Shown one piece after another: positions 6,001 to 7,247 of a DNA stretch of 7,247 bases. Numbering within the stretch: the first letter of the stretch is position 1; each line of letters begins with the position of its first letter. Source of the stretch: a virus (lineage: Duplodnaviria; Heunggongvirae; Uroviricota; Caudoviricetes); IMG/VR virus record IMGVR_UViG_2609459863_000007, positions 1-7,247 of that record. One strand, written 5' to 3'. The position numbers are program-made.

Positions 6001-7247
6001 CCGTCACTGTTGTTGCCAGATGTGGCGATTAGTCTTGACCGTACTGAAGATGCCACGCTGGAGTTTTACGAAGCTGAGGCGAAAAAGCAGGCGAAGCAGT
6101 TTTTCATGGATGTTGCTGCCGGGTTATGTGAAGGGAACGAACCGTTGCCGGAAAAGCGCCCCGTAATTTTAGAGGCGCAGGATGTGTTGATAACCTACAG
6201 AGGAAAACTACCGGGAATAATTACTGGTTCTCTGAAGACGCCACCGACGGCATTGCGGTCAGAAAACGATGATATTGAATCACGCATTGAAAAACTGGAG
6301 TGCTATATCGCTGAATTGAAAAAAAGCACCCCAACAAAAAATGAGGTGCTTGCAGCAGATGAAATGAAAGAAACTATTCTTGATCGCGCGGCGCATCTAA
6401 GCTGCGCTTCACTGTTGAAAGAGCATCTTCAGCAGCCTTGAGGAATCTTTTATCATCACGAGCAACTGTCTTTGGTATTTCTTTAATTAGATGTTCCATT
6501 TCGGCGATCAGGTAATCTGACACAGCGTTATTTTTACTTAGTGCATCCATTGCTTTGATTATCTTTGCGAGGCAGCCATCTCGCATTGTTGAGTTTACGC
6601 CAGTGCCCACCACTGGCGGGCTGAAGACTTAACATATCCAGGGATTCGGAACCGATAAATCCTGATAAATATCCATGAGCGCAAAAATCAGATACGGCCT
6701 GTCAGCTGCCATTCTGGCGCTGATTGCTGCAGGCGCATCTGCGCCTGACATTCTCGACCAGTTTCTGGATGAAAAAGAAGGTAACCACACCACAGCATAC
6801 CGTGATGGTGCAGGTATCTGGACCATCTGCCGTGGTGCCATCATGGTGGATGGCAAACCTGTCGTTCCGGGCATGAAGTTGTCGAAGGAAAAATGCGACC
6901 AGGTTAACGCCATTGAGCGTGATAAAGCGCTGGCGTGGGTGGAGAAAAACATCAGAGTGCCGCTGACCGAACCCCAGAAAGCGGGGATCGCGTCATTCTG
7001 TCCGTACAACATTGGTCCCGGTAAGTGTTTCCCGTCGACGTTTTATAAACGAATTAATGCAGGCGATCGCAGGGGGGCGTGTGAGGCGATTCGCTGGTGG
7101 ATTAAGGACGGTGGCAGAGACTGCCGTATTCGCTCAAACAACTGTTACGGTCAGGTATCCCGTCGCGACCAGGAGAGTGCGCTGGCGTGCTGGGGAATTG
7201 ACAGATAAGCAGAATATTTTGCTGAAAAATGCGGTTTGCTCACACGG

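What the first reader, a model, noticed from the sequence alone, without database searches (positions are those of the whole stretch)
6374..6613. Possible convergent antisense small gene inside the AT-rich patch of the holin-endolysin insert
A 70-79 codon minus-strand ORF with a plausible helical translation lies exactly in the lowest-GC stretch and overlaps the 3' end of the 176-aa ORF by 68 nt. A convergent overlapping pair inside a late operon could be a regulator/effector or toxin-antitoxin-like arrangement with antisense control. It could equally be a chance ORF: there is no clear Shine-Dalgarno and AT-rich DNA yields few stop codons on some frames.
Basis: inference. Interest (0 to 1): 0.45.

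Follow-up and report, generated by a model that had tools for sequence, protein, structure and literature searches.

The report
Truncated copy of reverse-oriented prophage gene
The minus-strand ORF is not a chance ORF: it is the rear two-thirds of a small, conserved, backwards-facing prophage accessory gene with its own leader and terminator, but a 100-bp deletion in this window removed its ribosome-binding site, start codon and first 26 codons, so this copy is most likely dead.

Summary
The ORF (6374-6613, minus, 79 codons from GTG or 70 from ATG, 68-nt overlap with the 176-aa ORF) is present as described. Its length alone is not above chance.

Relatives show what it is. Intact alleles have 100 more bases at window 6559-6571, between 13-bp direct repeats, and encode an 83-91-aa protein (phrog_18136, function unknown) with an AAGGA Shine-Dalgarno and an ATG. 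The N-terminal motif LFDRIFTLELQVGF is kept in all distant homologues, so the window allele is a deletion derivative. It retains codons 27-91 and reads former 5' leader as its "N-terminus".

The family is a real gene. dN/dS is 0.08-0.32, and in the overlap only the minus frame is constrained. A minus-strand intrinsic terminator (6351-6324) and a 5' leader hairpin (6598-6618) both show compensatory changes. A TAnnnT hexamer sits at a fixed distance upstream.

In every context the cassette is a lone gene facing against the late operon between Q and terminase. The convergent partner varies, so a toxin-antitoxin-type pair is not supported.

Best reading: an inactivated copy of a bor-style moron, expression in the lysogen being inferred. 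The protein's function is unknown. Interest is modest.

The parts
6374..6613 (-). The ORF as reported (79 codons from GTG 6613, 70 from ATG 6586). It is a chimera of retained coding sequence and former 5' leader.
   Evidence: for the ORF. Searches show that the first 16 residues have no counterpart in any intact homologue.
6374..6571 (-). Retained part of the ancestral gene: codons 27-91 (P28A at the junction) plus the TAG stop at 6374-6376.
   Evidence: The DNA is 100% identical to the intact allele of E. coli G1/2 outside the deletion. tblastn matches residues 27-91 in deletion-type viral contigs. phrog_18136 positions 18-87 are matched.
6559..6571 (.). Deletion junction: the single surviving copy of the 13-bp direct repeat TTATCTTTG(G/C)GAG. 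Intact alleles carry two copies 100 bp apart.
   Evidence: Alignment A1. Repeat coordinates are 6559-6571 in the window, and 2369-2381 and 2469-2481 in L002.
6572..6624 (-). Remnant of the conserved 5' leader. The outer helix CAGCC/GGCUG pairs 6623-6619 with 6577-6573. The inner hairpin CGCCAGUG-GUGGG-CACUGGCG is at 6618-6598.
   Evidence: The outer helix is invariant in 12 of 12 sequences. The inner hairpin has compensatory changes, and its G.U pairs form only on this strand. It folds at -22.3 kcal/mol. It is not in Rfam.
6631..6636 (-). TATGTT, a candidate -10 hexamer. A TAnnnT hexamer lies exactly 6 nt upstream of TCAGCC in every family member.
   Evidence: Read from alignments A6 and A8 and the leader sequences: TATGTT, TAAGGT, TACGGT, TATCCT, TAGCGT. 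No good -35 is present, and the consensus scan did not call a promoter here.
6316..6351 (-). Rho-independent terminator of the small gene, 23 nt after its stop: a 10-bp stem followed by a run of 7 U. It lies inside the coding sequence of the plus-strand 176-aa ORF.
   Evidence: Terminator scan. Energy is -15.5 kcal/mol with z = -5.0 on the minus strand; the plus strand is weaker and has no U-tail. Three of 9 counted pairs show compensatory changes, and 100% of cells are paired across 12 sequences.
5911..6441 (+). Convergent neighbour: a YdfR-like ORF. The DUF1327 domain covers residues 1-112. Its tail reads antisense through the terminator and the last 22 codons of the small gene.
   Evidence: Pfam DUF1327 at E = 4e-45 over residues 1-112. 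PGAP calls only the first 114 codons in relatives, as 'partial, missing C-terminus'. The plus frame is unconstrained in the overlap.
5691..5906 (+). Class II (P21-type) holin. Context only.
   Evidence: Pfam Phage_holin_2_1 at E = 9e-33.
6675..7208 (+). Lysozyme R. It is divergent from the small gene, whose promoter region lies in the 60 nt upstream of the R start codon.
   Evidence: Pfam Phage_lysozyme at E = 3e-24, and the annotation of relatives.

Best explanation
The ORF is the 3' two-thirds of a small accessory gene cassette (a 'moron') that sits backwards in the late/lysis operon of lambdoid prophages.

The intact cassette is about 0.45 kb. It consists of a weak sigma-70-type promoter with a conserved TAnnnT -10, a roughly 75-nt structured leader that begins at a CAGCC...GGCUG helix enclosing a hairpin, an AAGGA Shine-Dalgarno and ATG, an 83-91-codon ORF, and an intrinsic terminator. 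The ORF encodes an acidic (pI 5.2), roughly 10-kDa, all-helical cytoplasmic protein.

Inferred mode of action: the cassette is transcribed leftward as a monocistronic mRNA in the lysogen, while the late operon is silent. After induction, Q-modified RNA polymerase reads through it in the opposite direction and should shut it down by transcriptional collision and antisense RNA. The protein probably acts by binding another protein of the host or of a phage. Its target is unknown.

In this window a 100-bp deletion between 13-bp direct repeats (junction at 6559-6571) removed the SD, the ATG and codons 1-26, including the family's most conserved motif. It fused leader sequence in frame to codon 27. 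The copy is therefore most likely a non-functional remnant that may still be transcribed, because the promoter region, leader hairpin and terminator are intact.

Shown: the deletion, family membership, purifying selection, the terminator and leader structures, and the constant reverse orientation. Inferred: the promoter, expression in the lysogen, silencing on induction, and what the protein does.
For: Deletion: alignment A1 and the ORFs of L002 show 100 extra bp flanked by TTATCTTTG(G/C)GAG, and a 91-aa ORF with ATG and AAGGA.

Ancestral state: the N-terminal motif is conserved in homologues from Citrobacter, a metagenome, phage CharmingMan and more distant members.

Real gene: dN/dS is 0.08-0.32 across diverged pairs, and third-position changes dominate. 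In the overlap, pN/pS is 0.2-0.45 in the small-gene frame in 11 of 12 comparisons, against 0.8-2.3 in the opposite frame.

Own terminator: (z = -5.0). Compensatory changes occur in 3 pairs each of the terminator and of the leader hairpin. 99.7% of cells are paired against 32-49% for slid controls, and 0 of 500 shuffles reach the observed covariation.

Mobility and orientation: the cassette is found next to three different lysis-cassette types and between other late genes. It is always the lone gene opposing the flanking operon, between Q and terminase.

Moron criteria (PMC3594210): extra DNA absent from relatives (45 of 5426 complete E. coli genomes carry it; ydfR abuts R directly in O157), and deviant GC (0.436 against 0.517).

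The window allele lacks any SD. PGAP annotates nothing at this allele but does annotate the intact ones.
Against: There are no expression data of any kind. The promoter call rests on a positionally conserved TAnnnT without a convincing -35, and the consensus scan found no promoter there.

The retained 65 codons are 100% identical to the intact allele. About 15 complete genomes and 4 viral contigs carry the same deletion. The allele is therefore recent or spreading, and a residual function as a truncated protein from a non-SD start, or as an RNA, cannot be excluded.

Protein function is entirely open. The AF2 model has low confidence (pLDDT 61), and nothing was found in Pfam, NCBIfam, PADLOC, PDB sequences or PDB folds.

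Compensatory changes come from few independent lineages. Citrobacter and L037 share one hairpin variant.

One of the 12 overlap comparisons (window against L020) goes the other way: pN/pS is 0.85 in the small-gene frame and 0.37 in the opposite frame.
Confidence: 0.72

Rival explanations
1. Chance ORF: AT-rich antisense DNA that happens to lack stops, with no gene on the minus strand.
For: ORF length is unremarkable: 18 ORFs of at least 79 aa in the window, and 9.7 +/- 2.9 in shuffles. There is no SD. PGAP leaves this allele unannotated.
Against: The family shows dN/dS of 0.08-0.32 and an excess of third-position changes. The minus frame, not the plus frame, is conserved in the overlap. Homologues occur in unrelated flanking contexts. 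The gene has its own covarying terminator and leader.
Confidence: 0.02
2. The deletion allele is a functional short isoform. A 58-79-aa protein (helices 2-3 plus part of helix 1) would be made from the GTG, or from one of the two ATGs, and retain or change activity.
For: The retained codons carry no further lesions. The allele recurs in about 15 complete genomes and 4 viral contigs. Promoter region, leader and terminator are intact. The only amino-acid differences among deletion-type database proteins lie in the leader-derived 16 residues.
Against: None of the three candidate starts has an SD, and the GTG is paired in the leader hairpin. The deleted part holds the motif LFDRIFTLELQVGF, of which 9 of 14 residues are invariant in the 8 full-length sequences aligned, and which stays recognisable in the distant members. 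The family shows other decay events in E. coli: a 1-nt insertion in L012, an SD mutated to AATGA in L019 and L020, and rearranged proteins P0028, P0030 and P0031.
Confidence: 0.1
3. An antisense-controlled gene pair, toxin-antitoxin-like or regulator-effector, formed by the small gene and the YdfR-like ORF through their 68-nt 3' overlap.
For: A convergent 3' overlap of 20-86 nt with the neighbour recurs across the family. K-12 YdfR binds the RNase E catalytic domain and co-purifies with RNA (PMC13232886), so RNA-level interplay is conceivable.
Against: The overlapping partner is a different, unrelated ORF in each context, and in Citrobacter no convergent ORF is called at all. The plus frame in the overlap evolves without constraint. 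There are no PADLOC or TA-family hits. The overlap is simply explained by the upstream ORF reading into the inserted cassette until it meets a stop.
Confidence: 0.05
4. The cassette, including this remnant, acts mainly at the RNA or transcription level. On this reading it is a backwards promoter plus terminator that insulates the lysis genes from leaky late transcription in the lysogen, or that yields a cis-antisense RNA. The protein would be secondary.
For: The leader core (TCAGCC...GGAUGGCUG) is better conserved than the coding sequence across members whose coding sequences are only distantly related (E = 1e-4 to 1e-20 against the family profile). The cassette always faces the incoming late transcript and usually sits just upstream of a lysis gene. 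The same -10 and hairpin module precedes other cargo ORFs upstream of R. The deletion allele keeps exactly these RNA parts.
Against: Purifying selection on the protein shows that the product matters. No transcript data exist. In the CharmingMan group and in L037 the cassette is downstream of the lysis genes, not upstream.
Confidence: 0.11

Closest known systems
phrog_18136 / NCBI 'hypothetical protein' WP_021565043.1 and WP_024246813.1 (87-91 aa, E. coli prophages)
   Same: The window ORF residues 10-79 match profile positions 18-87 at E = 5e-41, and the DNA is identical to the intact allele outside the deletion.
   Different: The window copy lacks profile positions 1-17, the native start and the SD. 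The family has no assigned function and no literature.
Morons of lambdoid phages, especially lambda bor. That bor is a reverse-oriented accessory gene next to the lysis genes and is expressed from the prophage is from established knowledge. The moron definition is from PMC3594210.
   Same: An independent unit with its own terminator and probable promoter, deviant GC, present in a minority of otherwise similar prophages, placed in the Q-to-terminase hot spot, and oriented against late transcription.
   Different: There is no sequence relation to Bor. The product has no signal peptide or lipobox and is a soluble helical protein. Expression from the repressed prophage has not been shown. The conserved structured leader is not a described feature of bor.
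YdfR / DUF1327 (Qin prophage essQ-ydfR-rrrQ arrangement)
   Same: The neighbouring plus-strand ORF carries the DUF1327 domain and sits between a P21-type holin and the lysozyme, as in Qin.
   Different: The small gene itself is unrelated to YdfR. Here the YdfR ORF is extended by 60 or more residues that are an antisense read-through of the inserted cassette.
phrog_2572 gene of phage PhiR5_1 (annotated 'DUF1823 containing protein')
   Same: It occupies the same slot between ydfR and R, in the same reverse orientation. It sits behind the same -10 and hairpin module and ahead of the same terminator and a remnant of the last roughly 23 codons of the small gene.
   Different: The proteins show no detectable homology (hhalign probability 0.3%). 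The DUF1823 label is below the Pfam threshold (15.3 bits against a cut-off of 25).

Membership tests
phrog_18136 small-protein family | Significant full-length match to the family profile | tested here: inconclusive
   E = 5.4e-41, but only residues 10-79 match profile positions 18-87 of 87. Intact P0002 matches positions 3-87. The window copy is a partial member.
phrog_18136 small-protein family | Conserved N-terminal helix motif (L)FDRIFTLELQVGF with its own ATG and SD | tested here: not met
   The motif was removed by the 100-bp deletion. It is present in every intact full-length member examined.
phrog_18136 small-protein family | Reading frame under purifying selection | tested here: met
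   Family dN/dS is 0.08-0.32. In the overlap region, pN/pS is 0.2-0.45 in 11 of 12 comparisons, against 0.8-2.3 in the opposite frame.
Moron (independent accessory transcription unit in a prophage; PMC3594210) | Extra DNA absent from closely related phages | tested here: met
   The specific segment occurs in 45 of 5426 complete E. coli genomes, while the flanking holin, ydfR and R occur in thousands. In O157 prophages ydfR is followed directly by R.
Moron (independent accessory transcription unit in a prophage; PMC3594210) | Base composition different from the surrounding genes | tested here: met
   Cassette GC is 0.436, against 0.517 for the window and 0.541 for R.
Moron (independent accessory transcription unit in a prophage; PMC3594210) | Own terminator | tested here: met
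   Located at 6351-6324 on the minus strand, z = -5.0, with a U7 tail and compensatory changes in relatives.
Moron (independent accessory transcription unit in a prophage; PMC3594210) | Own promoter | tested here: inconclusive
   A TAnnnT hexamer lies at a fixed 6 nt upstream of the conserved leader start in all members. There is no conserved -35, and the consensus scan called nothing.
Moron (independent accessory transcription unit in a prophage; PMC3594210) | Expressed from the repressed prophage | not testable with these tools
   This needs strand-specific RNA-seq or reporter fusions in a lysogen.
Type I/II toxin-antitoxin or antisense-regulated gene pair | Two specific partners that co-occur and co-evolve | tested here: not met
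   The convergent partner differs in every context and its frame is unconstrained. There are no TA or defence family hits.
Known RNA families (Rfam 15) for the leader | Match to a curated covariance model | tested here: not met
   No hit at E <= 1 over the leader in the window or in four intact loci.

The most novel reading that the evidence does not exclude
The cassette could be a dedicated lysogeny-phase guard of the late/lysis operon. A backwards promoter with a highly conserved, translation-controlling leader would sense some signal and produce a small helical protein. Together with the convergent transcription itself, that protein would keep leaky late or lysis expression in check, or exclude superinfecting lambdoid phages, until Q-driven transcription overruns it. 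The SD-like and anti-SD-like segments and the mini-ORF starting at the invariant GGAUGGCUG would mediate the translational control. The leader would then be a new cis-regulatory RNA motif, and the protein a new class of prophage maintenance factor.
Probability: 0.1. Interest if true: 0.6.

Novelty: new member of a known kind. Interest (0 to 1): 0.3.

Why it matters
For this window it matters mainly as annotation. The ORF should be recorded as a 5'-truncated pseudogene of a real small gene, not as a new overlapping gene. The 176-aa 'YdfR' ORF should be read as a DUF1327 domain followed by antisense read-through of the insert.

At family level the result defines a rare, uncharacterised cassette with clear boundaries: promoter-like element, structured leader, ORF and terminator. 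There are 9 clusters at 50% identity among 1.84 billion representatives. The cassette always opposes late transcription in enterobacterial lambdoid prophages.

The slot between ydfR and R behaves as an exchange site for reverse-oriented cargo. This gives a small, experimentally tractable candidate for a lysogeny-expressed function. The intact and deleted alleles exist as natural controls in sequenced strains.

Tried and rejected
- Protein function searches all came back empty or below threshold. These were Pfam, PHROGs function labels, NCBIfam and PADLOC, PDB sequence profiles, AlphaFold2 (pLDDT 61, three helices) and Foldseek against PDB (best E = 1.2, generic helical hairpins). No function is claimed from these.
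- A profile search of 1.84 billion representatives found only 9 clusters. One genome per species (GTDB) gave no hit.
- The phrog_2572 cargo of PhiR5_1 is not a detectable homologue.
- The promoter scan found no sigma-70 consensus on the minus strand near 6614-6674. The TAnnnT argument is comparative only.
- Rfam gave nothing for the leader.
- A literature search by accession or PHROG id gave no papers.
- I rejected the idea that the 100 bp is an insertion with a target-site duplication, because it encodes the conserved N-terminus and the SD.
- I rejected the idea that the leader hairpin belongs to the plus-strand late transcript. Several U.G pairs in relatives would be C.A mismatches on that strand, although in the window itself both strands fold equally well.
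- My first reading, that 166 genomes carry the cassette, was wrong. That number refers to the whole holin-ydfR-R query. The cassette-specific count is 45.

Full report
**Setting.** The window is the late region of a lambdoid E. coli prophage. It holds:
- a Q-type antiterminator ORF (1617-2024);
- the STnc100 RNA (2578-2783);
- a SASA-type esterase (3007-4968);
- the DUF1378 and DUF826 ORFs;
- a P21-type class II holin (5691-5906);
- a DUF1327/YdfR-like ORF (5911-6441);
- a lysozyme (6675-7208).

Holin-ydfR-lysozyme is the arrangement known from the Qin prophage. The finding concerns the 230 bases between the YdfR-like ORF and the lysozyme.

**Observation.**
- The minus-strand ORF 6374-6613 exists. 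It has 79 codons from GTG and 70 from an internal ATG at 6586, and overlaps the 176-aa ORF by 68 nt.
- It lies in a GC trough: 0.446 for the ORF, with a minimum of 0.396 starting at 6261, against 0.517 for the window.
- None of its possible start codons has a Shine-Dalgarno.
- Its length is not evidence in itself. The window has 18 ORFs of at least 79 aa, and shuffles give about 10.

**What the relatives show.**
- Near-identical prophages come in two forms. In E. coli G1/2 (L002) there are 100 additional bases at the position of window 6559-6571, bounded by the direct repeat TTATCTTTG(G/C)GAG. There the minus-strand ORF is 91 aa, starts with ATG six bases after AAGGA, and is annotated as a hypothetical protein.
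- The window has a single repeat copy and lacks the 100 bases. This removes the SD, the ATG and codons 1-26. Because 100 is not a multiple of three, former leader sequence is placed in frame, which yields the odd N-terminus MVGTGVNSTMRDGCLA.
- The long form is ancestral. The motif LFDRIFTLELQVGFLLPK is kept in homologues from Citrobacter, a metagenome, phage CharmingMan and still more distant members.
- Among complete E. coli genomes the cassette-specific segment occurs in 45 of 5426. About 15 carry the window's deletion, where PGAP annotates nothing. About 30 are intact, and there PGAP annotates a hypothetical protein. Four of 20 IMG/VR loci also carry the deletion.

**Is the family a real gene?** Yes.
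- Pairwise Nei-Gojobori dN/dS is 0.08-0.32 for the diverged pairs, with dS up to 1-2. Differences concentrate at third codon positions.
- In the 68-nt overlap the small-gene frame has pN/pS of 0.2-0.45 in 11 of 12 comparisons, while the opposite (YdfR) frame has 0.8-2.3. One comparison, window against L020, goes the other way (0.85 against 0.37).

**Anatomy of the cassette.**
- *Terminator.* Twenty-three bases after the stop lies a minus-strand intrinsic terminator (6351-6324 plus a U7 tail). It folds at -15.5 kcal/mol with z = -5.0. The plus strand folds less well and has no U-run.
- *Leader.* Upstream of the ORF is a leader of about 75 nt. An invariant helix CAGCC/GGCUG (window 6623-6619 with 6577-6573) encloses an 8-bp hairpin (6618-6598).
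- *Covariation.* Across 12 distinct sequences 99.7% of cells pair, against 32-49% when partners are slid. Three pairs in the hairpin and three in the terminator show changes on both sides. None of 500 shuffles reaches the observed covariation. Several pairs are U.G on the small-gene strand and would be mismatches on the other strand, which assigns both structures to the minus-strand RNA. The independent lineages are few, so this is good but not overwhelming evidence.
- *Promoter.* Exactly 6 nt upstream of TCAGCC every member has a TAnnnT hexamer: TATGTT, TAAGGT, TACGGT, TATCCT or TAGCGT. The window copy is TATGTT at 6636-6631. This is the signature of a -10 element, with transcription starting at the foot of the outer helix. 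No -35 is conserved and the consensus scan is silent, so the promoter is inferred.
- *SD region.* Between the outer helix and the SD lies a CCUC/CUUC/CCUU segment that can pair with the SD (CCUU/AAGG, CCUC/GAGG, ACUUC/GAGGU). The invariant GGAUGGCUG also starts a mini-ORF. Both are read from the sequences and remain untested.
- *Rfam.* The leader matches no Rfam family.

**Context.**
- The cassette is mobile and always backwards. In E. coli it lies between ydfR and R, or upstream of a different holin/GH108 lysis cassette.
- In Citrobacter it lies between the STnc100 late leader and the holin.
- In CharmingMan-like phages it lies between a glycosyltransferase and the next late gene.
- In the distant members it lies upstream of holins or between the lysis genes and terminase.
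- In each case it is the lone gene opposing the flanking operon within the Q-to-terminase interval. Its 3' end usually overlaps whatever ORF runs into it, by 20-86 nt. The overlapping partners are unrelated to each other, so a specific gene pair is not supported. The overlap is best explained by the upstream ORF reading into the insert until it meets a stop.
- In the window that ORF is the DUF1327 domain (residues 1-112) followed by a tail that PGAP does not accept as YdfR.
- 'Long YdfR' variants (L005, PhiR5_1, FORC_043) share the sequence up to window ~6438 and then continue differently.
- The same -10 and hairpin module upstream of R precedes other reverse-oriented cargo: phrog_2572 in PhiR5_1, and an unannotated 210-aa ORF with an AGGAG SD in FORC_043. 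The ydfR-R gap therefore behaves as a cargo exchange slot.

**Mechanism.**
- The features match the definition of a moron given in PMC3594210: added DNA, deviant GC, and its own promoter and terminator allowing expression from a repressed prophage.
- The orientation recalls lambda bor (my own knowledge). I therefore take the intact cassette to be a lysogeny-expressed accessory gene that is overrun by Q-antiterminated late transcription after induction.
- The product is acidic (pI 5.2), about 10 kDa, predicted all-helical (three helices, pLDDT 61), and has no membrane or export signals. It probably works by binding another protein.
- No family, structure or defence-system match gives a function.
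- For the window's copy the most likely state is a dead gene whose RNA parts survive. A short isoform or an RNA-level role cannot be excluded, and both are listed as rivals.

**Novelty and interest.**
- The family is already catalogued as phrog_18136 and as hypothetical proteins, but it is uncharacterised and has no literature. As a kind it is a moron.
- The specific finding in this window is a deletion remnant, so interest is modest.
- Two features deserve some attention: the leader RNA, whose core is conserved better than the protein, and the strict reverse orientation in the late operon.

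Noticed in passing
window 2578-2783 (+): Full-length match to Rfam STnc100 (143 bits, E = 1e-32) downstream of the Q ORF. The same RNA lies just upstream of the small-gene cassette in Citrobacter L006 (4527-4728, minus strand), and in L039. It marks the start of the late transcript.
   Followed up: partly
window 5911-6441 (+); L005 1573-2561; L004 1933-2568 (minus strand); L043 275-1066: The YdfR-like ORF is mosaic. The DUF1327 domain (about 113 aa) is followed by tails that vary between prophages, giving ORFs of 176, 159, 211, 263 aa, or 151+184 aa split by a frameshift. 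All tails share the stretch that is antisense to the small gene's terminator and last codons. PGAP treats many as partial pseudogenes. K-12 YdfR was recently reported to bind the RNase E catalytic domain and to co-purify with RNA (PMC13232886).
   Followed up: partly
L043 (E. coli FORC_043) 815-1447 (minus strand); L004 (phage PhiR5_1) 1725-1985: Other reverse-oriented cargo ORFs lie in the same ydfR-R slot, behind the same TATGTT hexamer and CCAGTGGTGGGCACTGG hairpin. One is an unannotated 210-aa ORF with an AGGAG SD and no family hit. The other is an 86-aa phrog_2572 protein. This suggests a cargo-exchange site with a shared backwards promoter module.
   Followed up: partly
window 6577-6579 (ATG on the minus strand) and the equivalent leader positions in L003, L006, L029, L036, L037, L039: The invariant GGAUGGCUG in the leader starts a mini-ORF: MAASQR* in the window, and MADYLR* or MADTSG* elsewhere. 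In L006 and L029 it is in frame with the main ORF. In L037 it ends in an AUGA overlap with the main start codon. It could be a leader peptide or a coincidence of RNA structure.
   Followed up: no
window 6629-7012 (minus strand): A 127-aa ORF antisense to the 5' half of the lysozyme gene is open in the window and in the four relatives whose ORF lists cover it (L002, L004, L005, L043; 125-127 aa). It ends next to the small gene's promoter region. It is probably a by-product of the strong conservation of R, but was not tested.
   Followed up: no
window 2025-3006: ARAGORN finds no tRNA genes between Q and the esterase gene, whereas the related locus L039 carries two tRNAs next to STnc100.
   Followed up: no
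L006 (Citrobacter) 5529-6468: In the reverse-oriented stretch that begins with the small-gene homologue, two overlapping same-strand ORFs (146 and 174 aa) lie further downstream. The second has a YafO-toxin match (E = 1.7e-5, at the Pfam cut-off). This may be a TA-like moron nearby, separated from the small gene by its terminator and by the STnc100 region.
   Followed up: no
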